A stretch of DNA of 64,000 nt from Candidatus Parcubacteria bacterium (GTDB lineage Bacteria; Patescibacteriota; Patescibacteriia; Patescibacteriales; UBA12465). Shown here piece by piece: positions 7,370 through 57,075 of this stretch. Position 1 is the first letter of the stretch. Each line of letters begins with the position of its first letter. The notes beneath the pieces were generated by a model that saw nothing but the letters and a program-made list of their open reading frames with translations, ran no database searches and was not told the origin of the DNA. The translations under genes were made by a program, and so were the position numbers. The stretch covers positions 325,470 through 389,469 of the forward strand of contig AP029158.1 of NCBI GenBank assembly GCA_037076615.1. Direction: 5' to 3'.

Positions 7370-7405
7370 TTTCTTATTATAACATCTCTTTAGTCTTCAG
7401 GAAAT

Positions 7406-7636
7406 AAAAAAAGCGACCGTCGTTACGACAGTCGCTCAAGGAAGAGGGGAGGAGGTTGTTTAAGAAAAAATTATTTACGGACTTTTTGTCTCAGCTGTTT
7501 TCTGAGATATTGGCGGACATGGCGTCCAATCAGAAAAGAAATCTTCCCCTGGGGCCTTCGGTTTTGGCGGAGGCGGGACTAAATAAAAATCATACATTTT
7601 GCTGTGTTTTTATGTTGTTAATAAAAAAATTACAAG
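7406..7636 (-). ncRNA. Candidate small RNA or attenuating leader upstream of the pilin gene
   Basis: On the minus strand a promoter (7643-7671) is followed about 200 nt later by a GC-rich hairpin (7413-7435) and a U7 run (complement of A-run 7406-7412). CCUCCUCCCCUCUUCC lies directly 5' of that hairpin. There is no convincing ORF on either strand. Confidence 0.3.
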
Positions 7637-7642
7637 ATTTCT

Positions 7643-7671
7643 ACTCTAGCAAAAAGTATTTAGGCTGTCAA
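7643..7671 (-). promoter_or_regulatory. Extended -10 promoter driving the 7.4-7.6 kb non-coding unit
   Basis: Minus strand reads TTGACA, 17 nt ending in TGc, TAGAGT. Confidence 0.45.
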
Positions 7672-7710
7672 GACACTCTAAATAAAGGAAGGGTTTTTCC
7701 TTAAATTTAA

Positions 7711-7741
7711 TAAAAAAAGACGAGTTTTTTTGAACTCGTCT
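7711..7741 (-). terminator. Intrinsic terminator of phoH2
   Basis: AGACGAGTT / AACTCGTCT stem followed on the minus strand by a T-run. Confidence 0.8.
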
Positions 7742-7750
7742 TAATAAAAT

Positions 7751-26923: not shown

Positions 26924-28201
26924 ATGGAAGCAAAGACTTTTAAAGGTATGTGGAAGGCGATAGTCTTTCTGACCACCGTCGCCACGGTACTTTTTTCTTG
27001 CTCCGCCTGTGAGCCCGAAGAAGTCCCCGTGGTTTATGAACCGAGCATAAAAGTTTCGGTAGAAAATGTTCGAGGGACAAGTGCGACCCTCGTTGCTGAA
27101 GTGTGTGCCGCCGGACAAAATCTGGAAGTACAACTTGAATACTTTACCGACAATAGTTGGCAAAAAATTGACGCCGGTCGCATTAACGGCCAAGAAAAAC
27201 AAATCATCAAAAAAGAATTGACCGGTTTGTCTCCGGAAAAAAGTTATCAACTGCGAGGCTCTTTAATTTTACGTATTGACGGCGCTTGGAACTATGCCGC
27301 CATCGGGAACACTGTAGATTTTAAAACTCTCAAACAATCAAAGTTTAGGGTTGTAAAAACAGTGAGTGATTATGACTTCATTGAAGTGGAGTTTGAACTC
27401 ATCCCTCGTTGGCCAAATACCAAAGTTGAATTGGAATACCAAGGTATCGTCAAAGGTTCAAATGTCTACAGCGGTGATCAGGCCGTTACTTTCACTATCA
27501 AAATGGATAAACTGGCAAAAAATACCATTTATCCGGTGAAAATGAAAGTAAATAATGAAGGGGGTTTCACTGTTGACACTACTTTTCAAACGGCCGCGGT
27601 TGAAGACTACGATGGTAACAAGTATTGCGTAGTTACTATCGGCACCCAGACTTTTATCAAAGAAAACCTGAAGACGACCCATTTTCTAAATGGTGATCCG
27701 ATTCCGAACATTACCAATGATGACCAATGGATTACCCTAACCACTCCCGCTTATTGTTATTACAACAATGATCCGGAAATGGGTAAGAAGTATGGCGCTC
27801 TCTACAATTGGTATGTCGCTTCTGATCCTCGAGGGTTGATTGAAGGGTTTCATGTTCCTACAGAAGAAGAGTATTCTTTTCTTGTTAATTATCTGGGAGG
27901 AGAATCTTGTGGCGGCGCAATGAAAACGACCACTCTCGATTGGAAACAGCCTAATGTAGGGGCCACTAACACTTCCGGCTTTAGCGCTTTACCGGCTGGG
28001 ATAAGAAGAGATTGGAAGGAAGTAGACCCGAAGCCATTTTCTTATTTAGGTGAGGGTACTACATTTTGGACAGGAAAAGATGAGCCAAGATTACCAGGAC
28101 TCACTTACAGCCCAACCTTGAGTTTTAAAAACAGTGGGTTTATGATGGGCGGTTTGAATTTTTTTAACAGCGGATTTAGTATCCGTTTAATAAAAAACTA
28201 A
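26924..28201 (+). CDS. Lipoprotein with a C-terminal FISUMP (Fibrobacter succinogenes major paralogous, TIGR02145-type) domain
   Basis: Lipobox-like LFSC. The C-terminal region DYDGNKYCVVTIGTQTFIKENLKTTHFLNGDPI ... YGALYNWY ... GFHVPTEEEYSFLVNYLGG ... NTSGFSALPAG matches the FISUMP pattern. Confidence 0.75.
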   Translation: MEAKTFKGMWKAIVFLTTVATVLFSCSACEPEEVPVVYEPSIKVSVENVRGTSATLVAEVCAAGQNLEVQLEYFTDNSWQKIDAGRINGQEKQIIKKELTGLSPEKSYQLRGSLILRIDGAWNYAAIGNTVDFKTLKQSKFRVVKTVSDYDFIEVEFELIPRWPNTKVELEYQGIVKGSNVYSGDQAVTFTIKMDKLAKNTIYPVKMKVNNEGGFTVDTTFQTAAVEDYDGNKYCVVTIGTQTFIKENLKTTHFLNGDPIPNITNDDQWITLTTPAYCYYNNDPEMGKKYGALYNWYVASDPRGLIEGFHVPTEEEYSFLVNYLGGESCGGAMKTTTLDWKQPNVGATNTSGFSALPAGIRRDWKEVDPKPFSYLGEGTTFWTGKDEPRLPGLTYSPTLSFKNSGFMMGGLNFFNSGFSIRLIKN

Positions 28202-28207
28202 AAATCT

Positions 28208-28238
28208 AAAGAGGTGTTTTTAATAAACACCTCTTTTT
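28208..28238 (+). terminator. Intrinsic terminator after the FISUMP gene
   Basis: 12-bp stem AAAGAGGTGTTT / AAACACCTCTTT followed by a T-run. Confidence 0.8.
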
Positions 28239-28239
28239 C

Positions 28240-28268
28240 TTAACAAAAATTAAAAAAAATGCTAAAAT
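28240..28268 (+). promoter_or_regulatory. Extended -10 promoter, copy 1 (inside repeat unit 1)
   Basis: TTAACA, 17 nt ending in TGc, TAAAAT. Confidence 0.5.
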
Positions 28269-28295
28269 ACAAACATATATATATATTTCAAATTC

Positions 28296-28324
28296 TTAAC
28301 AAAAATTAAAAAAAATGCTAAAAT
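28296..28324 (+). promoter_or_regulatory. Extended -10 promoter, copy 2 (inside repeat unit 2)
   Basis: Identical to copy 1. It lies 43 nt before the ATG at 28367. Confidence 0.5.
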
Positions 28325-28366
28325 ACAAACATATATATATATTTCAAAAAATAACTAAAAAATATT

Positions 28367-30372
28367 ATGAAGAAAGTTTTTTGGGCTAAGTTTTTAAAAC
28401 TAATATTATTGGCTCTTTTTTTATTTTTACCAGCAGCTAGTAGAGCTAGCAATCCTTTTTTTACAATTACAAAAGGTTGGAGACAAGACTTTAATCGCTT
28501 GTTAACAGGAATAGGCGAAAAAGCTACTTCAAAAACCAATACCGAAGGCATCTATTCTTTTATTAATCGCTGTTCTGGTGATATTTTGTCGGTAATAATT
28601 CAGCAACTGAGTTTCAATCCTTTTTAAATAATCCTCCCGCTTGTGTTGAAAAAAATGAATGTGGTGATGGTGTTTGTCAGTCGTCAACAGAAAATCCGAC
28701 TAACTGCCCTGATGATTGTTATCGCCCGAGCGGTTATTGTGGTGATGGCATTTGTCAAACAAATAGCGGGGTTCAAGTCTGGGTCTCTTATAACCCCCCT
28801 AAAGAAAGTACTTATTGGGAAAAAACTTGCCGAGAGAAGACTAATCGCTGGATTTGGGTACCAATCGTAAATACTATTTTAGTTTGGACAGGAAACACTA
28901 GCCATATGGTTTGTGATGATGTTAAAAAGACCGTTAAAATTTATGGCGGTTATGTTGACGGCGGTGAAGCTTATACAGTAAGCGATAGCAGCAAACAAAC
29001 TGAGTGCAAACAAGATTGTGCTCCTCCTCCAACCCTTGGTTGTGGGACTTGCGGTTATAATGCAGAAGGGGAACTCTGTCCTAATAATTGTGGCGACAAA
29101 GGATATAACTTAGTTAATTGCTCTTTTAAGGCAGCGGTAAGCGTTACTGAATGCAAAAACGTAAACCCACTAATCCCTTTGGTTAAAAATAATAATAATT
29201 CGTTTTTAAAAAAATATTTTAGTGTTGCTTCCGCTTTAGCGTATATTGAACCAACTGGTGCTGGCACCATAGAAGATTGCATCACTTATCATACCGATGC
29301 TTACTGGACCTGCGATAATAGTGATGATTCTTCTTTGTGTGCCGCTGGGTATTATTGTACTAATGCTGGAGGTTTAAATACATCTTTTTGCCCCTCTGGT
29401 AAAACTTGTCAAATGATTACTTGTCCGGCAGGTAGTTTTTGTCCTAAAGGATCTTCTTATCCCCGATATTGTCCCTATAATTACTATAGCGATTCTGGTG
29501 CTTCAAGTTGTACACAATGTCCGACCGGAACTGGGACGATGACGGGTGGAGCGGCTGGTGTTGCCTCTTGTGAGCCACTTAATATTGCAAACGATGGCGT
29601 CTGTAATACCCTTGAAGATCCAACAAACTCTCCTCAAGATTGCCCAGATAACTTATCTGACTCTCGTCAAGCTGGATGGATTGGTGATGGGTTATGCACT
29701 GGTATTGAAACGATTGCGAATTCTTTGGATTGTTCTTGTGGTAACGGCGTCTGCGATGCTAACGAGAGTGACTTACTTTGTATAGCTGATTGTACTTGTC
29801 TGGATAATATTTGTGACACTGGGGAAACAAATAAATGTGCGGTTGGTGGCGTGACTCAAACTAATCCTGGTTGCTCAACGCTAGCAAACATCGATCGTTG
29901 TGGTGATGGTGTTTGTTCTACGGGTGAGAGCTATAATGAGACTTTAAAAAAGATTGTTTGTCAGGCTGATTGTTTTTGTGGTAACCGTGTTTGTGAGCCA
30001 GCAATTGGAGAAACCATGTCAACATGTTTTCGTGACTGTTCTTGTGGCAATGGTATTTGTGATGGGGTTGATACCAGATATAATTGCCTTCAAGATTGCT
30101 CCTGCGGTAACGGTACTTGCGAGCCTCAATATGGAGAAAATTGGAGAACTTGTCTTACCGACTGTCGTTGCGGCAATGGTATTTGTGACAGCTCTTACGG
30201 AGAAACTCCTTCTAATTGCTATATAGATTGCAGTGTTTGTGGTAATGGTGTTTGTGAATTTAGAGAGACTGCTACAAAACCAGTTCCACTAGGCTTCGTA
30301 TATTGTTACAATGATTGTAGTGATAATGAGTGTTTACCAGGGGAGCCGTGCCATATCATAAAAGAACAATAA
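28367..30372 (+). pseudogene. Secreted cysteine-rich repeat protein, reading frame interrupted by a 1-nt frame change near T5 tract 28621-28625 (pseudogene, phase variant, assembly error or -1 frameshift)
   Basis: The signal-peptide ORF (28367-28627) stops at TAA. The downstream frame is open from 28582 and encodes CGDGVCQ / CGDGICQ family motifs well before its first ATG at 28906. One extra T at 28621-28625 fuses the two into a protein of about 668 aa. Confidence 0.6.
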
Positions 30373-30381
30373 AACGTCAAT

Positions 30382-30819
30382 ATGAATAAAAAACAAAAAA
30401 TTATTTTTTTTGCAATTATCTTCTTCCTACTGCTTGGTTTAAGTTTTATTTTTTATAAAAATAAACAAAAACTCCCCGATGTAGAAAACGAAGCTAATGC
30501 AGAACAGCAAAATCTGGATCAGTCACCCGCTTACACTCCCACTGCTCGCGAAGCCAGTAACTGGAACGCTCCTTTTACTAAACAGATTCAAGTGGTTTTT
30601 GCTACTGAAGAAGAACGAGAACAAATGGGAATAAATGTTAGCCCTTTATTTGATCCGGCGCGTATTCAGGTTTTAGAGCGAGATGAGAATGGTCGGGTAA
30701 TTACCTATAAAAAGATTTATAACGATAATGAAATTATCCACGAATTATATCTCCCCACTGGAAGTTTAAGTGAAGGAGGAATTGTCCCAATAATTGAAGA
30801 GAGTGAAGAAAATATATAA
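30382..30819 (+). CDS. Membrane-anchored hypothetical protein
   Basis: 145-aa ORF 9 nt after the Cys-rich gene, with an N-terminal transmembrane helix (IIFFAIIFFLLLGLSFIFY). Confidence 0.5.
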   Translation: MNKKQKIIFFAIIFFLLLGLSFIFYKNKQKLPDVENEANAEQQNLDQSPAYTPTAREASNWNAPFTKQIQVVFATEEEREQMGINVSPLFDPARIQVLERDENGRVITYKKIYNDNEIIHELYLPTGSLSEGGIVPIIEESEENI

Positions 30820-30823
30820 CAGC

Positions 30824-30853
30824 TAAAAAAGCTCCCAGTCGGGAGCTTTTTTT
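30824..30853. terminator. Bidirectional intrinsic terminator
   Basis: AGCTCCC-AGTC-GGGAGCT stem flanked by an A-run and a T-run. Confidence 0.85.
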
Positions 30854-32219
30854 AAGCCTGTTTTTTAGGGTTAAAGCCTAAAACAGCCAGGAGCGACCCG
30901 GCAAGAATCCAGAAATTCCACTGCATAACCGCATCTTTAATCACATTATCGGTTAAACTGGCACCGAGAATTCCTAAAATAAAAATAGCAATAAAGAAGA
31001 TTAGCATTCTTAGGCGGGGGCGCTTTTCACACTTAAAGGCTAAAAAGAAGCGTCGCAGTAAGTCGGCATAAATTGCCAAATAACTTACCAAAAGAACAAC
31101 GCCACCCTCCAGCCAAACTCGCAGGTAATCATTATGCGGCTCGGTATCCATCATCAAACGAGGAATATTTTTTCCCAAAAAAACTGAAGCCGTCCCCGGA
31201 CCGTAACCAAGCCACGGGCTTTTTTTGATGTAACCGACAATGTCTCGCCACAAATCTAAGCGCCAGGAGGCGGATCCGGTAATCCCAATGCTGGATAAAG
31301 AATTTATGCGTTCTTGAAAGAAGGGCACAAAGGCATATATCAAAAGAAAGGTAAGAATACCGACGAGCAAGAGCTTTTTAAAATAAACAACACCGACTAC
31401 TATCAAAATACCGGCGAGAGCCAGCCAGGCAATGCGGGTGTAGGTGAAAATTAAAGGTACGAGAAAAAATAAACTTAAAAGTAGATAAGGCCAACGTTGA
31501 ACCGATTGTTTACGTAAATTTAAAACTAAAAACAGAGTTAAAGAAATTATTAAAACCAAATAAAGAGCGAGCATGTTTGGGTGAGTAAAAGTTCCGACCG
31601 CTCGCCATTGTTCGCCATCATAAAATCCGCCCCGATTAATTATTTGCTGCCAAGCCACGGCCGCCGGGACGATCGCCGTAAAAATCAAAGCTCGAATTAA
31701 ATTGGTTAATTTTTGAGGGGTGTTAAAAATAAGGTAACTGTAAATAAAGATGGAGACAAAGCTTAAGAGGCGGAAAAGATTAACCAAACTGGCGCCGCGA
31801 TCAAAGGAAATAAATATCGAAAGGATAATAGTTAAGCTTAAAAAAATTAGCCACGGATAAAAAATTTTCTGCTGCTGCGGCTTTAAAGGGTGGCGGTAAA
31901 GCTGATAAAAAGCCAAGACAATCGGCATCAAGCCTAAAATAAAAGTCAAAGTAATCTCTAGGGAACCTAAATTAAACAAGGCTAATTTACTACCAAAAGA
32001 ATCAAAAACGGTTCGTAAAAAAATCAAGGCAAAAAAGCCGGCTTGAGGATTAAAAAAGGACCAAACAAAAATAGCGATGGACGCTAATAAAAAAATTAGA
32101 CTTAAAGAATCGCCGGTCCAAAAGAGAGTTAGAAGCGTACCGCCGATTGCCAATAAACCCAAAGTAACTACCGCCGTTTGCGATAAGTCCGCTTTAGTCG
32201 CTTTATTCCTTTCAGTCAT
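30852..32219 (-). CDS. O-antigen ligase / polymerase family (Wzy_C-like) polytopic membrane protein
   Basis: At least 10 predicted transmembrane helices and a loop with TEPHNDYLRVWLEGG typical of the family. The start is set at ATG 32219 (MTERNK). Confidence 0.7.
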   Translation of the reverse strand: MTERNKATKADLSQTAVVTLGLLAIGGTLLTLFWTGDSLSLIFLLASIAIFVWSFFNPQAGFFALIFLRTVFDSFGSKLALFNLGSLEITLTFILGLMPIVLAFYQLYRHPLKPQQQKIFYPWLIFLSLTIILSIFISFDRGASLVNLFRLLSFVSIFIYSYLIFNTPQKLTNLIRALIFTAIVPAAVAWQQIINRGGFYDGEQWRAVGTFTHPNMLALYLVLIISLTLFLVLNLRKQSVQRWPYLLLSLFFLVPLIFTYTRIAWLALAGILIVVGVVYFKKLLLVGILTFLLIYAFVPFFQERINSLSSIGITGSASWRLDLWRDIVGYIKKSPWLGYGPGTASVFLGKNIPRLMMDTEPHNDYLRVWLEGGVVLLVSYLAIYADLLRRFFLAFKCEKRPRLRMLIFFIAIFILGILGASLTDNVIKDAVMQWNFWILAGSLLAVLGFNPKKQA

Positions 32220-32277
32220 AAAAAATGCTATGCTTAATGTATTAATCTTAAGGAAAAAGCGGCTTAAAGTCAAAAAT

Positions 32278-33483
32278 ATGACCATTGTCCAGGCTAATAA
32301 ATTTCTTTATCCTAAGGGCGGGGCTGATCGCTACTGCTTAACTTTAATAAAAGAGTTGGAAGCTAGCGGCTATAAAGTGGTTCCGTTTGGGATGGTTGAT
32401 TCGCGTAACTTGGAATCCCCTTGGGAAAAATATTTTACCGCACCGGTTGATTATTATGGTTCCGGAAATAAATTTAAAATGGCTAAAAATATAATTTGGA
32501 ACCGATCGGCCGCCCGGCAGTTTGGCGAGCTTTTAGATAAGGCCAAGCCGGATTTAGTTCATGCTCATAATATTTATCACCAATTATCGCCAGCAATTTT
32601 GCCGGAAGCGAAACGACGAGGAGTAAAAATGGTGATGACTCTGCATGATTACAAGCTCGTTTGTCCTAATTACCGCCTATTTACCAAAGGGCACCATTGT
32701 GAAGCTTGTCTGAATGGAAGCTATTTTAATTGTTTAAAAAATAATTGTTACGAATCTTATCCTCGGAGTGCAGTCGCGGCCTTAGAAAGTTTTTTGCATA
32801 ACAAAGAGTGGGGCACTTATTATAAGAATGTTGATCTCTTGATTTCTCCTAGTGAATATTTAAAGAGTAAAATGGTCCAAGTCGGTTGGCCCGCCTCGAG
32901 AATAAAAGTTTTACTTAACCCGGCGCCGCCTTATGATCCGCAAGCGGATGGGGAAAGATTACTTTATTTAGGCCGACTGACAAAAGAGAAGGGGGTACAT
33001 ATTTTATTGCAGGCTTTAGAGGGTACTGACGAATATTTGGATATTGCCGGCACCGGCCCGGAAGAAGAAAATTTAAAGGCTCTAGTCAAAGAGCTTGGTT
33101 TAACAGAAAGAGTGACTTTTCATGGCCACCTTGACGGCGAAACTTTGGAAAAGTTAAAAAAAGAGGCTAAAGCCGTAATCTTACCTTCGGTTTGGGCAGA
33201 GAATATGTCTTTAGTTTTATTGGAATCATTAGCTTACGGGAAACTGATTATCGCCTCTAAGACGGGCGGCACCCCGGAAATTATTAGGGACGGTGAAACC
33301 GGCTGGTTATTTCCCGCTGGTGATATAGCGGCCTTAAGAGGGTGTTTGGGTGAGATAAATGAGTTAACTCCACCTGAACGAGAACACCGAAAGCATAAAA
33401 TTAAAGATTTAATAGAGCCCTTATCTTTAGAAAACCACTTGGAAAAACTAACGGAATACTACCGAGAAGTCTTAGAATCTTAA
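32278..33483 (+). CDS. Glycosyltransferase family 4
   Basis: GT-B pattern with C-terminal LPSVWAENMSLVLLESLAYGKLIIASKTGGTPEIIRDGETGWLF (E-x7-E region). The start is set at ATG 32278 (MTIVQANKF), because the track extension is antisense to the neighbouring gene. Confidence 0.85.
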   Translation: MTIVQANKFLYPKGGADRYCLTLIKELEASGYKVVPFGMVDSRNLESPWEKYFTAPVDYYGSGNKFKMAKNIIWNRSAARQFGELLDKAKPDLVHAHNIYHQLSPAILPEAKRRGVKMVMTLHDYKLVCPNYRLFTKGHHCEACLNGSYFNCLKNNCYESYPRSAVAALESFLHNKEWGTYYKNVDLLISPSEYLKSKMVQVGWPASRIKVLLNPAPPYDPQADGERLLYLGRLTKEKGVHILLQALEGTDEYLDIAGTGPEEENLKALVKELGLTERVTFHGHLDGETLEKLKKEAKAVILPSVWAENMSLVLLESLAYGKLIIASKTGGTPEIIRDGETGWLFPAGDIAALRGCLGEINELTPPEREHRKHKIKDLIEPLSLENHLEKLTEYYREVLES

Positions 33484-33503: not shown

Positions 33504-33531
33504 AAAGCCTCCTCCTAAAGGGGGCTTTTTC
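33504..33531 (+). terminator. Intrinsic terminator after the GT4 gene
   Basis: GCCTCC / GGGGGC stem (one G-U pair) followed by T5. Confidence 0.55.
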
Positions 33532-33534
33532 CTA

Positions 33535-33695
33535 TTGACAAAATAATAAATATATGATACTATATCCAGGTTAGTATTGACAAATAGTTATAAAGTAATT
33601 AAAAGCTTATTTCTCTAAAGTATTGACAAAATCTAAAATATATACTATAATAGAATCATAAAAATATTGACAAAAAACCATTTTAATTCTAGAAT
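33535..33695 (+). promoter_or_regulatory. Array of four tandem TATTGACAAA promoters spaced 42-46 bp apart
   Basis: There are four TTGACA hexamers, each with a 17-nt spacer. 33535: TGaTACTAT. 33577: TAAAAG (weak). 33623: TATAAT (perfect). 33667: TAGAAT. The ATG is at 33714. Confidence 0.6.
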
Positions 33696-33713
33696 AGTTA
33701 GTCGTTAAAAAAT

Positions 33714-38880: not shown

Positions 38881-38942
38881 AAGATAGAATTTATTGCTTA
38901 ATTTGTCAATACTATTATATAATAATTCTCTAATTTTGTCAA
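38881..38942 (-). promoter_or_regulatory. Two tandem consensus promoters for the GT4 gene
   Basis: On the minus strand the distal promoter is TTGACA (38937-38942), 17 nt, TATAAT (38914-38919). The proximal promoter is TTGACA (38904-38909), 17 nt, TATCTT (38881-38886). Confidence 0.6.
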
Positions 38943-48374: not shown

Positions 48375-48896
48375 TTACTCTAAAAGACTAGCTAAAATAT
48401 CTAAACGGCCGTCTTGATTTAAGTCGTCAAGAGCCACCGACAAGCCATTTTTTAAGTTACGATCGTAAGCCATAAATTGCGCTTTTAGCCTCCCCGTCTG
48501 ATCAAAAACACGTACCTGAGGATCAGCGCCGGGCCCGGGACCGGTAATAATTTCGGCCTGGCCATCGCCGTCAATATCGCCGACGGCAACATTAACACCG
48601 CCGCGAAAATCTTTATCATAGGCCATAAACTGGAGTTTCACTCGGCTTTGACTATCAAAAACGCGCACATGCGGACCACCGCCCAGACCAGCACCGGTCA
48701 CAATTTCGGCTTGACCGTCACCATCAATATCACCAACGGCCACGTTAACGCCGCCGCGAAAACGACTGTCATAGGCCATAAAAGCGCCTTTAACCTGGCC
48801 AGAATTATTAAAGATCCTCACTTGCGGACCACCGCCGCGACCAGCGCCAGTGACAATCTCTTTTTGACCATCACCATTTAAATCACCAAAACCCAT
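48375..48896. repeat. Intragenic 153-nt (51-aa) tandem repeats encoding FG-GAP-like blades
   Basis: The period was confirmed at DNA level: TCAATATCGCCGACGGCAAC at 48571 and TCAATATCACCAACGGCCAC at 48724. There are three full units plus a partial one. Confidence 0.85.
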
Positions 48897-50378
48897 TGTA
48901 AAATCACCATTCCAAGGACCAAAGGGGCGGAATTTTAAAGTTTCGCGGCCCTTAGTACTAATTTTCATCTCACCATTTTCCGCCACCGCCACTTGTTCAG
49001 CGCCCGTTCCAGAAAAATCTACTTTTAACAACTGCCGGCGACCGGAATAATTATCTAAGTACGCAAAGAAGCCATTGACTATCTGCGTGCCGGTGGTATC
49101 AAAAACGCGATAAAAATTGCCGTTGATAAAGTTAGAACCCTGGATTAGGTTTGGCCGCTTCAAAAGAATAATTCCGTCTTTAGGCGCTAAACTAATCCAG
49201 TTAACCCGTTGACCGTTATTGGTCAGCGGGTCTTGAGTGCCCCGCAAACGTTCAAATTCCTCTTTAGTAAAAACATAACGCTGCGTTTTATCAGTGGAGT
49301 TTAAAATCGCCACCCCGGCCGAAAAATCACGACGCCAAAGCCCGGGTTTTAAATTTTTATTTTGGCGATCCAATAAATTATAAGGAGCGGTTTGGGCTGA
49401 GCCTAAATCAATATTATATTCATCGTACCACCAGAGCCGACCATGATCTAAAGGTCCATAATCAAAGCTGTAATAAGCATTGCCCAATAAAGCATTAGTT
49501 AGGCCGTAGCGAAACTTTTTATAATCATCGGCGTTGTTAGCGGCCGCATTTAACACATTATGTTCTTGGCCGTTGTTAGAAAAAATTTGATAATTTTTTA
49601 AGACCGCCGTCCAGTCGCCGCCACTTACCCAAGGAGTGGGAAAATCTTCAATCATCCAGCCGTCTAAAAGAGTTTGGTATTGAGTGTGCCAACTACCATT
49701 GCCTAAAATAATTGCTTCCGGCCAGGCTTTTTCCGTCTTCGTAAAAATTTGGCGCATTCCATTGACCCAGGCGGTATTTAATTCGTAAGCGCTACTCTTA
49801 TAACCATTATTGCGCAAGGAGACATTGCCACCATTAAACCAAGCGGCGCCATCCCAGACATTGTCAAAAAAAACGCCATCCCAGAAGCCAGAACTTTTTA
49901 AATTATCAACTACAAATTTCGGCAAGTAATCATTATAGCGTTGACCATTTACTAAGGGGGCGTAGTTAGTAACATTTAAAACATAAGCATTGGGCCAATC
50001 CGATAAGCGCTGGCCACCACTATCACGTAACCACCAAGAATTCGAAATTCCGGCGTTTAATTTTTTCCGCAAGACCGACTCATTAGAATTTACCCACGGC
50101 TCAAAGAGATTTTGAGAAGTGACGTAAGCTAAGATAACAATATCGGGATTGAGCCGACGAATTAAACGTAATTGTTCCGGGCTGTTTTCTTGCACCTCCA
50201 TATCCAAAATCAAAAAGTCCCACTTCGCTAATTCGCGGGCTTTATCATCATTTAAAGACCAGTGCAAAAAATAATTAGCAATCTTCGGATTTTTTTCAGC
50301 GGCGAAAGTGGCCCCGGGAGTAAACGCCAAGGCTAAACAGAAAATAGTGATAGTCAGAAAATATTTTTTCATCAACAA
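48375..50378 (-). CDS. Secreted GHL-type TIM-barrel-like domain fused to FG-GAP/VCBS-like repeats
   Basis: Signal peptide, an N-terminal domain paralogous to 25747-26778, and a C-terminal repeat GDIDGDGQAEI[VI]TG.G.GG.P.VRVF in 3 to 4 copies. Confidence 0.6.
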   Translation of the reverse strand: MLMKKYFLTITIFCLALAFTPGATFAAEKNPKIANYFLHWSLNDDKARELAKWDFLILDMEVQENSPEQLRLIRRLNPDIVILAYVTSQNLFEPWVNSNESVLRKKLNAGISNSWWLRDSGGQRLSDWPNAYVLNVTNYAPLVNGQRYNDYLPKFVVDNLKSSGFWDGVFFDNVWDGAAWFNGGNVSLRNNGYKSSAYELNTAWVNGMRQIFTKTEKAWPEAIILGNGSWHTQYQTLLDGWMIEDFPTPWVSGGDWTAVLKNYQIFSNNGQEHNVLNAAANNADDYKKFRYGLTNALLGNAYYSFDYGPLDHGRLWWYDEYNIDLGSAQTAPYNLLDRQNKNLKPGLWRRDFSAGVAILNSTDKTQRYVFTKEEFERLRGTQDPLTNNGQRVNWISLAPKDGIILLKRPNLIQGSNFINGNFYRVFDTTGTQIVNGFFAYLDNYSGRRQLLKVDFSGTGAEQVAVAENGEMKISTKGRETLKFRPFGPWNGDFTMGFGDLNGDGQKEIVTGAGRGGGPQVRIFNNSGQVKGAFMAYDSRFRGGVNVAVGDIDGDGQAEIVTGAGLGGGPHVRVFDSQSRVKLQFMAYDKDFRGGVNVAVGDIDGDGQAEIITGPGPGADPQVRVFDQTGRLKAQFMAYDRNLKNGLSVALDDLNQDGRLDILASLLE

Positions 50379-56296: not shown

Positions 56297-56299
56297 AAA

Positions 56300-56476
56300 T
56301 TATTCAACAGTGATCGCGCCGACTGGACAAGCCGCCGCCGCCTCTTCCCCTTCACTCTGATCACCATCAGGATTAATTACCTCCGCTTTACCGTCGGCAT
56401 CCATAGCAAAAATTTCTGGATGCAGGCTAGCGCAAAGACCGCAGCCAATACAGGCTTCTTTATCAACTTTGATCAT
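56300..56476 (-). CDS. Small single-cluster ferredoxin (58 aa)
   Basis: Own translation: MIKVDKEACIGCGLCASLHPEIFAMDADGKAEVINPDGDQSEGEEAAAACPVGAITVE. It has CxxCxxC ... CP. It is below the track length cutoff. Confidence 0.75.
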   Translation of the reverse strand: MIKVDKEACIGCGLCASLHPEIFAMDADGKAEVINPDGDQSEGEEAAAACPVGAITVE

Positions 56477-56517
56477 AAAATTAAGTTATTATTATTATTT
56501 TATTTTTTACTAGGGTA

Positions 56518-56526
56518 ATTATAACA
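56518..56526 (-). promoter_or_regulatory. Extended -10 element (TGtTATAAT) heading the fdx-to-ftsQ minus-strand operon
   Basis: Minus strand reads TGTTATAAT about 40 nt upstream of the ferredoxin ATG. The -35 is poor. Confidence 0.45.
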
Positions 56527-56626
56527 ATTTTTCAATAAATAATCTAGACAAAAAAATAGACTTTTTTAGTAAAAATCTGCCCAAAAACCATTTTTTTGCT
56601 TTTTACGGGGCCGGGCTTTTAATTTA

Positions 56627-56655
56627 TTGACAATCTTTTGCTCTTTTGTTATCAT
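56627..56655 (+). promoter_or_regulatory. Sigma70-type promoter of rpmA
   Basis: TTGACA, 17 nt, TATCAT. Confidence 0.6.
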
Positions 56656-56728
56656 TGGACAGTAAATTTAGAAAAAAGCGAGCACTTAGGCGAAAGCCTT
56701 TTTTTATCGCGCTCCTTACTTAATTAAT

Positions 56729-57007
56729 ATGGCAACAAAGAAAGCTGCGGGGTCTACCTCGCTCGGCCGTGACTCCGCTGGAAGACGCTTAGGTGTTAAA
56801 CTGGCTGATGGCCAAATCGCTAAAGCTGGCAATATCATTATTCGTCAGCGCGGCAGCAAATACTTCCCGGGATCTAATGTGATGCGGGGTAACGATGACA
56901 CGCTCTTCGCAGTTTCCGATGGCGTTGTGAAGTTTAGTTCCCGCAAGTTAAAAAAATTTAACGGCAAGTTAAAATTGGCGAAAATTGTGAGTATTGTCAC
57001 TGACTAG
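56729..57007 (+). CDS. rpmA: 50S ribosomal protein L27
   Basis: [24 protein letters not shown] ... [13 protein letters not shown]. There is no N-terminal propeptide. Confidence 0.93.
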
Positions 57008-57033
57008 TTTATTGTTCTTTAGCAGATAAAAAG

Positions 57034-57066
57034 AAAAAGCTCGATTGTAAAATCGAGCTTTTTTTA
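57034..57066. terminator. Bidirectional intrinsic terminator
   Basis: AAGCTCGATT-GTAA-AATCGAGCTT stem flanked by A and T runs. Confidence 0.85.
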
Positions 57067-57075
57067 TAACTATCT

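What the first reader, a model, noticed from the sequence alone, without database searches (positions are those of the whole stretch)
28237..28348. Exact 56-bp tandem duplication carrying a complete extended -10 promoter and an (AT)6 tract, upstream of a secreted Cys-rich protein gene
Units 28237-28292 and 28293-28348 are identical base for base. Each contains TTAACA, a 17-nt spacer and TGcTAAAAT. Each then has an (AT)6 tract (28275-28286 and 28331-28342). The pair sits between the terminator of the preceding gene (28208-28238) and the ATG at 28367. A perfect head-to-tail duplication of a whole promoter is unstable to slipped-strand or homologous exchange. Unit number could therefore tune or switch expression, and the dinucleotide tract is a second slippage substrate. 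I saw no comparable structure in any other intergenic region of the window.
Basis: partly seen in the sequence, partly recalled or inferred. Interest (0 to 1): 0.6.

Follow-up and report, generated by a model that had tools for sequence, protein, structure and literature searches.

The report
Recent tandem duplication of a promoter
A 56-base stretch carrying the whole promoter of a surface-protein operon has been copied head to tail in this tiny uncultivated (Parcubacteria) bacterium. Close relatives carry one copy, so this is a real strain-to-strain promoter copy-number difference of a kind already known from other bacteria, not a new mechanism.

Summary
Bases 28237-28292 and 28293-28348 are identical (56 bp x 2.0), and chance expects no such pair. 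Each unit carries TTAACA-17 nt-TGcTAAAAT and an (AT)6 tract. The pair lies between a terminator hairpin and the ATG at 28367.

The duplication is real and derived. Seven k=31 contigs from six sequencing runs end or start exactly where a de Bruijn graph of an allele with two or more copies must break. Three assemblies of a sister strain carry one copy, one of them an unbroken k=31 contig. Three more distant relatives have terminator, a single promoter, then the gene.

The proximal copy keeps the native distance to the ATG (43 nt). The distal copy adds a second identical promoter 56 bp upstream.

- (AT)6 is invariant in every sequence that covers the whole tract, so it shows no sign of slippage.
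- In this genome the target gene is frameshifted (T5 to T4 at 28584-28587). Only the co-oriented 145-aa gene can still benefit.
- The gene body is a 2.3-kb patch that matches another species.

The closest known case is promoter tandem-repeat copy-number variation in M. tuberculosis (57-58-bp units). High-frequency switching is untested. This is a new member of a known kind, of modest interest.

The parts
28208..28241 (+). Intrinsic terminator of the upstream 425-aa Fib_succ_major-domain gene (26924-28201). It is a hairpin at 28208-28236 followed by a T-rich tail. The duplication starts at 28237, directly after the stem.
   Evidence: Searches give a 12-bp inverted repeat with a 5-nt loop. A hairpin with a different sequence sits at the same place in L003/L012/L030, L037 and L038.
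28237..28292 (+). Unit 1 of the 56-bp duplication, the distal promoter copy P1. -35 TTAACA is at 28240-45, TG at 28260-61, -10 TAAAAT at 28263-68. The predicted start is near 28275 and (AT)6 is at 28275-86. The -10 hexamer ends 99 nt before the ATG.
   Evidence: The transcription start is inferred, not measured.
28293..28348 (+). Unit 2, the proximal promoter copy P2. -35 is at 28296-301, TG at 28316-17, -10 at 28319-24. The predicted start is near 28331 and (AT)6 is at 28331-42. The -10 hexamer ends 43 nt before the ATG, which is the same geometry as in the single-copy allele.
   Evidence: Single-copy alleles are L001, L016, L028 and L029.
28367..30372 (+). Cys-rich secreted-protein gene with an N-terminal signal-peptide-like segment and no Pfam match. 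It is frameshifted in this window. Relatives encode intact proteins of 667-673 aa. Here it splits into an 86-aa ORF (28367-28627), and the Cys-rich body continues in another frame. Within that frame the 488-aa ORF 28906-30372 is the one annotated as BFD25011.1.
28584..28587 (+). T4 run that causes the frameshift. It is T5 in L001, L004, L006, L008 and L011. It is T4 also in the Logan contig of run DRR520374.
30382..30819 (+). 145-aa gene with an N-terminal hydrophobic segment. It starts 9 nt after the Cys-rich gene and is co-oriented, so it is probably co-transcribed from the duplicated promoter.
   Evidence: A small gene follows the Cys-rich gene in all relatives. The operon is inferred from spacing.
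28636..30912 (.). Recombinant patch. Outside it the window is 97-100% identical to strain L028. Inside it the window is 92-100% identical to a different species (L003), and the 145-aa gene matches at 438 of 438 bases. The crossovers lie at 28636-28646 and 30912-30926.

Best explanation
**What it is.** A genuine, evolutionarily recent tandem duplication of the native promoter of a two-gene cell-surface operon. The operon is a Cys-rich secreted protein gene followed by a 145-aa membrane-anchored protein gene. The host is a Candidatus Parcubacteria (Patescibacteria) bacterium.

**Ancestral state.** Terminator hairpin, one sigma-70-type promoter with an extended -10, a leader of about 36 nt without a Shine-Dalgarno motif, then the ATG.

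**The event.** 56 bp running from the first base after the terminator stem to 18 nt before the ATG were copied head to tail, with no microhomology at the junction.

**The result.** Two identical promoters with start sites 56 bp apart. The proximal one keeps the native geometry. The distal one adds a second entry point for RNA polymerase and gives a 92-nt leader.

**Likely effect (inferred).** In the E. coli tandem-promoter model, start sites more than 35 bp apart do not occlude each other. The expected effect is therefore a modest rise in transcription, less than twofold, limited by collisions with polymerase sitting on the proximal promoter.

**Reversibility (inferred).** The two perfect 56-bp repeats are a substrate for recombination or replication slippage. 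Copy number can therefore fall back to one or rise further, as in promoter tandem-repeat copy-number variation in Mycobacterium tuberculosis.

**Shown versus inferred.**
- Shown: the duplication, that it is derived, and that copy number differs between natural populations.
- Inferred: promoter activity of both copies, the direction and size of the expression change, and reversibility.

**In this genome.** The first gene is broken by a frameshift. Any effect here can act only on the 145-aa gene.
For: - **Exact duplication.**
- **Independent support from other data sets.** The k=31 contig L002 ends 30 nt into the unit. L004, L005, L006, L011, L033 and L035 start 30 nt before its end. A k=31 de Bruijn simulation of an allele with two or more copies reproduces exactly these ends. 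A one-copy allele gives one unbroken unitig.
- **Single copy in the sister strain.** Seen in L016 (JGI), L028 (megahit k141) and L029 (an unbroken k=31 contig). Their intergenic region is 125/126 to 126/126 identical to the one-copy form.
- **Single promoter, no repeat, in more distant relatives.** L003/L012/L030/L036, L037 and L038-41.
- **Promoter model is predictive in this genome.** All 9 matches with at least 10 of 12 positions plus TG are intergenic, against 7.2% intergenic DNA. The usual -10-to-ATG distance is 33-45 nt, and P2 sits at 43 nt.
- **Literature.** Start-site spacing above 35 bp avoids occlusion (PMC8830795). Promoter repeats of 57-58 bp vary in copy number, and a second lpdA copy raises the phenotype (PMC12817950).
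Against: - No transcription data exist. Promoter-like matches are as common in shuffled sequence of this AT-rich region as in the real one (14 found, 13.5 expected). The promoter call therefore rests on context.
- The target gene is frameshifted in this genome. That fits a decaying locus as well as a tuned one.
- The graph signature cannot tell two copies from three, or from a mixture of one and two.
- One MAG contig of the same lineage (L001) shows a single copy. This could be a real allele or a collapsed assembly.
- The lack of microhomology means the origin is not simple slippage.
Confidence: 0.6

Rival explanations
1. Neutral or slightly harmful recent mutation. The duplication is real but has no regulatory meaning. 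It is tolerated, and perhaps hitch-hiked, at a locus that is decaying or under relaxed selection in this strain.
For: - The first gene of the operon is frameshifted in the same genome.
- The junction has no microhomology, as expected of a one-off illegitimate event.
- No expression data exist.
- Four related lineages do well with a single promoter.
Against: - The signature of two or more copies is present in six runs from four accession series (DRR, ERR and two SRR). In all but DRR520374 the assembled gene is intact. Three gene haplotypes are involved: L004, L006 and L011. The duplication is therefore not confined to the pseudogene strain and has persisted and spread.
- This genome also maintains diverged multi-promoter arrays in front of other envelope genes.
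Confidence: 0.25
2. High-frequency, reversible contingency locus. Unit number, and the (AT)n length, change often within a population and switch or tune expression of the surface protein.
For: - Perfect 56-bp repeats are a known substrate for RecA-dependent and RecA-independent gain and loss.
- In M. tuberculosis, 57-58-bp promoter repeats vary at 10^-2 to 10^-3 per chromosome (PMC12817950).
- Both one-copy (L001) and two-copy (window) forms are assembled for the same lineage.
- The locus encodes a fast-evolving surface cassette that matches another species.
Against: - No read-level data exist.
- (AT)6 is invariant in the window and in 12 other sequences, and it lies outside the spacer.
- Both alleles keep a complete promoter at the native position, so there is no OFF state.
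- No contig with three or more copies was seen.
- L001 may be a collapsed assembly.
Confidence: 0.12
3. Assembly artefact. The second copy was created by the assembler or polisher of the 717-kb contig.
For: The window is the only assembled sequence that shows both copies. Two contigs of close relatives show one copy.
Against: - Seven k=31 contigs from six runs break at exactly the two positions predicted for a junction-containing graph. One of them is from DRR520374, whose contig otherwise matches the window base for base.
- Assemblers tend to collapse such repeats rather than expand them.
Confidence: 0.03

Closest known systems
Promoter tandem repeat (PTR) copy-number variation in Mycobacterium tuberculosis: dop 57-bp, lpdA-glpD2 58-bp and cysG-efpA repeats, which are MIRU-VNTR loci (Modlin et al. 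2025, PMC12817950)
   Same: - Head-to-tail repeats of about 56-58 bp lie immediately upstream of a gene and contain promoter sequence.
- Copy number differs between strains.
- The proposed effect is a graded change in transcription.
- In the Erdman strain the first gene (lpdA) is frameshifted, so the repeat can act only on the co-operonic gene. This window shows the same combination.
   Different: - Only one versus two copies is documented here.
- No within-population heterogeneity and no expression effect has been measured.
- The organism is an uncultivated Patescibacteria bacterium.
- The repeat is a single perfect duplication unique to one lineage, not a long-established VNTR family.
Native and synthetic tandem promoters in E. 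coli (Chauhan et al. 2022, PMC8830795; from my own knowledge, rrn P1-P2 and tandem core-tac promoter clusters)
   Same: Two co-oriented promoters drive one gene. The start-site spacing of 56 bp falls in the 'more than 35 bp, no occlusion, collision-type interference' regime.
   Different: Native tandem promoters are usually non-identical and differently regulated. Here the two are identical copies, so no regulatory diversification is possible yet.
Simple-sequence-repeat contingency loci in promoters, from my own knowledge: the TA repeats between -35 and -10 of Haemophilus influenzae hifA/hifB, and the poly-G tract of Neisseria porA
   Same: A dinucleotide (AT)6 tract lies within a promoter region.
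   Different: The tract is downstream of the -10 hexamer, not in the spacer. It has only 6 units. It is invariant in all sequences compared. The resemblance is superficial.
TR34/TR46 tandem repeats in the Aspergillus fumigatus cyp51A promoter (my own knowledge)
   Same: A short tandem duplication of 34-46 bp in a promoter segment is polymorphic among natural isolates and raises expression.
   Different: That is a eukaryotic promoter in which transcription-factor binding sites are duplicated, with a selected drug-resistance phenotype. No phenotype is known here.

Membership tests
Sigma-70-type promoter with extended -10 | -35-like hexamer, 17±1-nt spacer, -10 hexamer with A2 and T6, and TGn directly upstream of the -10 | tested here: met
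   TTAACA-17-TGcTAAAAT in both units, 10 of 12 positions plus TG.
Sigma-70-type promoter with extended -10 | Placed upstream of a gene at the distance usual for this genome, and positionally conserved in relatives | tested here: met
   All 9 matches of this quality in the window are intergenic. The usual -10-to-ATG distance is 33-45 nt, and P2 is at 43 nt. Four related lineages have one promoter-like site between the same terminator and the same gene.
Sigma-70-type promoter with extended -10 | Transcripts start 6-8 nt downstream of the -10 | not testable with these tools
   No RNA data. Starts near 28275 and 28331 are predictions.
Promoter tandem-repeat copy-number variation (PTR-CNV) | At least two head-to-tail copies of a unit that contains promoter elements, directly upstream of a gene | tested here: met
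Promoter tandem-repeat copy-number variation (PTR-CNV) | Copy number differs among strains or populations | tested here: met
   One copy in L016, L028 and L029, and in L001 as assembled. Two copies in the window. Graph signature of two or more copies in six runs.
Promoter tandem-repeat copy-number variation (PTR-CNV) | Minority copy-number variants within a clonal population at a frequency far above the mutation rate | not testable with these tools
   This needs reads. The k-mer signature cannot separate a pure two-copy population from a mixture.
Promoter tandem-repeat copy-number variation (PTR-CNV) | Expression changes with copy number | not testable with these tools
   No expression data.
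Simple-sequence-repeat (dinucleotide) contingency locus | Tract length varies among strains | tested here: not met
   (AT)6 in both window copies and in L001, L004, L005, L006, L011, L016, L028, L029, L033, L034 and L035.
Simple-sequence-repeat (dinucleotide) contingency locus | Tract lies where a length change alters expression, that is in the -35/-10 spacer or in a reading frame | tested here: not met
   The tract is at 28275-86 and 28331-42. That is 6 nt downstream of the -10 hexamer and upstream of the ATG.
Intrinsic (Rho-independent) terminator | G+C-containing hairpin followed by a T run, directly after a stop codon | tested here: met
   Hairpin 28208-28236 followed by TTTTTCTT. The scan reports the minus-strand reading, and the plus-strand tail is read directly from the sequence. 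Hairpins of different sequence lie at the same place in relatives.

The most novel reading that the evidence does not exclude
Promoter-unit number at this locus is a fast, reversible copy-number dial (1, 2, 3 ...). It would create subpopulations with different levels of a surface-protein cassette that was exchanged between species, in an episymbiotic candidate-phyla-radiation bacterium. This would be the first contingency-type regulatory locus described in that group. The older 44-46-bp promoter array at 33529-33697 would be the fixed, diverged end state of the same process.
Probability: 0.15. Interest if true: 0.5.

Novelty: new member of a known kind. Interest (0 to 1): 0.3.

Why it matters
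Gene regulation in Patescibacteria (the candidate phyla radiation) is almost unstudied, because very few of these bacteria are cultivated.

- **A natural experiment.** The locus gives a clean one-promoter versus two-promoter contrast in otherwise nearly identical backgrounds. It can be tested in existing metagenomes and metatranscriptomes.
- **Origin of multi-promoter regions.** It suggests how the multi-promoter regions seen in front of other envelope genes of the same genome may arise.
- **Surface variation.** The locus combines a promoter duplication, a homopolymer frameshift and a gene cassette that matches another species. It is therefore a candidate hot spot of surface variation, which is plausible for an organism that lives attached to host cells.

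The mechanism itself is already known from Mycobacterium tuberculosis and other bacteria. The gain is incremental.

Tried and rejected
- **Genome-contig scan with the 425-aa upstream protein.** It returned only distant Fib_succ_major-domain hits in Bacteroidota.
- **Metagenome-contig scan with a 25-nt core of the unit.** One hit only (L016).
- **Exact look-ups of the 343-aa and 425-aa upstream proteins.** Nearly all contigs break inside the 425-aa gene and never reach the intergenic region.
- **Look-up of the 86-aa and 488-aa fragments.** Both returned only the DRR520374 contig. The 717-kb NCBI contig is not in the position index.
- **Rfam and tRNA scans of the window.** Nothing found.
- **Leader RNA structure.** The two (AU)6 tracts pair in the minimum-energy fold of the long leader, but the z-score is -0.5. 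I dropped the idea of a regulatory leader structure.
- **L008 start inside the AT tract.** It does not match the k-mer pattern expected of an (AT)5/(AT)6 mixture. I treated it as a coverage gap.
- **L034, a SPAdes contig at 1.4x coverage.** It starts at unit position 1 with one mismatch. That suggests a graph break but does not match the k=55 prediction exactly, so I did not count it.
- **Microhomology at the duplication junction.** None found.
- **Accession searches in the literature.** They showed only that two JGI samples come from a municipal landfill.

Full report
**1. The observation**

The sequence at 28237-28348 consists of two identical 56-bp units. TRF gives period 56, 2.0 copies, 100% matches, and a direct comparison agrees. 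A search for the unit with up to three mismatches finds only these two copies in the 64-kb window, and none of 100 shuffles gave any.

The flanking bases differ on both sides (28236 T against 28292 A; 28349 A against 28293 T). The array is therefore exactly two copies, with unique boundaries and no microhomology at the junction.

Each unit has TTAACA, a 17-nt spacer, TGcTAAAAT and an (AT)6 tract. The 165-bp intergenic region is 14.5% G+C. It starts with a hairpin (28208-28236) plus a T-rich tail directly after the stop codon of a 425-aa Fib_succ_major-domain gene. It ends at the ATG at 28367.

**2. Source and setting**

The 488-aa ORF at 28906-30372 is identical to NCBI protein BFD25011.1, named 'MAG: hypothetical protein JST_000330 [Candidatus Parcubacteria bacterium]'. 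It sits on a 717,294-bp contig. Relatives are labelled Patescibacteria group bacterium. Two JGI samples that hold relatives come from a municipal landfill.

The window is chromosomal. It carries UvrABC, an H+-pyrophosphatase, GltX, MetG and DnaX. The finding lies in a cell-envelope region that encodes:
- a GHL15 protein and a Fib_succ_major protein;
- a Wzy_C-type protein;
- GT4 glycosyltransferases;
- a Wzz-like protein.

**3. Is the unit a promoter?**

There are no RNA data, so this is inference from context. Start codons in this genome are preceded by A/T-rich leaders without Shine-Dalgarno motifs, and clear TTGACA-17-TAnAAT sites precede many genes.

The generic scan finds as many promoter-like sites in shuffled sequence as in the real one (14 against 13.5). 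Stricter matches behave differently:
- With at least 10 of 12 hexamer positions plus TG, there are 9 matches in the window.
- All 9 are intergenic, although intergenic DNA is only 7.2% of the window.
- Where a co-oriented gene follows closely, the -10 hexamer ends 33-45 nt before the start codon.

The proximal copy (P2) sits at 43 nt, the same as the only promoter of the single-copy allele. The distal copy (P1) sits at 99 nt.

Relatives keep the same order, which is stop codon, hairpin, one promoter-like site, an A/T-rich leader, then the ATG. This holds in three other lineages whose sequences are otherwise unalignable:
- L003/L012/L030/L036: TTGCAA-17-TATAAT.
- L037: TTTTCA-17-TGtTATAAT.
- L038-41.

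None of them has a tandem repeat there.

**4. Is the duplication real, and is it variable?**

Exact-protein look-ups returned contigs from many public assemblies. Seven Logan (k=31) contigs from six runs stop at the repeat.
- L002 ends 30 nt into the unit.
- L004, L005, L006, L011, L033 and L035 begin 30 nt before its end.

I simulated a k=31 de Bruijn graph on the window sequence. An allele with two copies, three copies, or a one-plus-two mixture gives unitig ends identical to those observed. A one-copy allele gives one unbroken unitig.

The runs are DRR520374, ERR13731099, SRR24962750, SRR36594267, SRR36594270 and SRR36594271. The DRR520374 contig is otherwise identical to the window. All six therefore contain the TTTCAAA|TTCTTAAC junction. 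This excludes an artefact of the 717-kb assembly.

A sister strain carries a single unit in three independent assemblies:
- L016 (JGI);
- L028 (megahit, k141);
- L029 (Logan k=31, uninterrupted).

Its intergenic region is 125/126 to 126/126 identical to the one-copy form of the window. One copy is therefore ancestral and really exists.

L001, from MAG GCA_964593015.1, belongs to the window's own lineage and shows one copy. That could be a real allele or a collapsed assembly.

Nothing here measures variation within a population, and no allele with three or more copies was seen.

**5. The (AT)6 tract**

It is (AT)6 in both window copies and in 12 other sequences that cover the whole tract. One of these is a strain whose neighbouring gene is only 78% identical. 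It lies at about +1 to +12 of the predicted transcripts, not in the spacer.

I find no support for it as a slippage substrate. The two tracts can pair in the long leader RNA, but that fold is no better than shuffled sequence (z = -0.5).

**6. The downstream gene**

Relatives encode an intact protein of 667-673 aa. It has a signal-peptide-like N-terminus, many CGNGxC-type repeats and no Pfam match.

In the window a T5 run is T4 (28584-28587). The signal-peptide ORF therefore stops after 86 aa, and the Cys-rich body continues in another frame. The next start codon in that frame is only at 28906. The same T4 is in the DRR520374 contig. L004 is otherwise identical but has T5.

In this genome, then, the promoter pair drives a broken first gene. 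It probably also drives the co-oriented 145-aa gene that starts 9 nt after it.

The duplication signature also occurs in five runs whose assembled gene is intact, and with three gene haplotypes. It is therefore not tied to the frameshift.

**7. The locus is a mosaic**

Identity of the window to strain L028, by segment:
- GHL15 gene: 99.6%.
- Fib_succ_major gene: 97.7%.
- Intergenic region: 99%.
- Wzy_C gene: 98%.
- Cys-rich gene: 78%.
- 145-aa gene: 75%.

Against L003 the pattern is reversed. The flanks are 70-80% identical, the Cys-rich gene is 94% identical from nt 142 on, and the 145-aa gene matches at 438 of 438 bases.

Sliding identity and the alignments place sharp crossovers at 28636-28646 and 30912-30926. 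So a 2.3-kb patch matches a different species. The direction of exchange between the two species is unknown. All sequences with the duplication or its signature carry this patch. The sister strain without the patch has one promoter copy.

**8. How it most likely works**

The duplication created two identical promoters with start sites 56 bp apart. In the E. coli tandem-promoter model, start sites more than 35 bp apart do not occlude each other. Interference comes only from collisions with polymerase on the downstream promoter, and such pairs give higher mean expression (PMC8830795).

I therefore expect a modest rise in operon transcription, below twofold. This is inferred.

Perfect 56-bp repeats can be lost or expanded by recombination or slippage. 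In M. tuberculosis, promoter repeats of 57-58 bp vary at 10^-2 to 10^-3 per chromosome, and an engineered second lpdA copy increases the phenotype (PMC12817950).

That paper even describes the same combination as here. The first gene (lpdA) is frameshifted, and the repeat can act only through the co-operonic gene.

Either allele leaves a complete promoter in place. This is a dial at most, not an on/off switch.

**9. Other promoter arrays in the window**

At 33529-33697, upstream of a Wzz-like gene, AGTATTGACAAA recurs four times with a 44-46-bp period, and three of the copies have a recognisable -10 hexamer. The 37-nt units are 68-70% identical.

A pair of TTGACA-17 sites lies 33 bp apart at 38942-38881 on the minus strand, upstream of a GT4 gene. 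These may be old, diverged products of the same kind of event. That is speculation.

**10. Verdict**

It differs between natural populations.

The promoter reading is well supported by context but unmeasured. The (AT)6 idea is not supported, and high-frequency switching is untested.

This is a new member of a known kind (promoter tandem-repeat copy-number variation), found in a little-studied phylum. Interest is modest.

Noticed in passing
window 28584-28587: A one-base deletion in a T5 run (T4 here) frameshifts the Cys-rich gene. Relatives encode an intact 667-673-aa protein. The same T4 is in the Logan contig of DRR520374, and L004 is otherwise identical but has T5.
   Followed up: yes
window 28636-30912: A 2.3-kb patch is 92-100% identical to a different species (L003, GCA_028681575.1). 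It covers most of the Cys-rich gene, the 145-aa gene and the 3' end of the Wzy_C gene. The flanks are 97-100% identical to strain L028. The crossovers are sharp, at 28636-28646 and 30912-30926. It looks like a recent exchange of a surface-protein cassette between species.
   Followed up: yes
window 33529-33697 (+) and 38881-38942 (-): Diverged multi-promoter arrays. Four AGTATTGACAAA motifs with a 44-46-bp period lie upstream of a Wzz-like gene (33714), and three of them have -10 hexamers. Two TTGACA-17 sites lie 33 bp apart upstream of a GT4 glycosyltransferase gene. They may be old promoter duplications.
   Followed up: partly
whole window: Start codons are preceded by A/T-rich leaders with no Shine-Dalgarno motif, while -35/-10 promoters are close to the E. 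coli consensus.
   Followed up: partly
L037 87-3966; L038 380-3939; window 26924-30819: A three-gene module is conserved in relatives that share only 40-42% identity in the Cys-rich protein. It consists of a Fib_succ_major-domain protein, a Cys-rich protein of about 670 aa and a small protein of 130-145 aa. The Cys-rich family is small (8 clusters of similar length) and has no Pfam domain.
   Followed up: partly
window 26924-28201 (near codon 303): Seven of the ten contigs returned for the 343-aa upstream protein, nearly all of them Logan k=31 contigs, break inside the 425-aa gene at the same place. This suggests strain-level variation or a repeat there.
   Followed up: no
window 48501-48889 (inside the minus-strand ORF 48375-50378): A 153-bp-period tandem repeat with 2.5 copies and 74-78% identity lies in a coding region. 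It is probably a repeated protein domain.
   Followed up: no
window 56297-57075 and 7370-7750: Two unusually long intergenic regions (779 and 381 nt) each hold a strong promoter-like site, at 56627 (+) and 7671 (-), with no ORF of 120 aa or more just downstream and no Rfam match. They may hold small genes or non-coding RNAs.
   Followed up: no
window 30852-32285 (-) and 32077-33483 (+): The longest ORFs overlap by about 200 nt. Relatives call the Wzy_C gene at 455 aa, not 477 aa, so its real start is probably further downstream.
   Followed up: no
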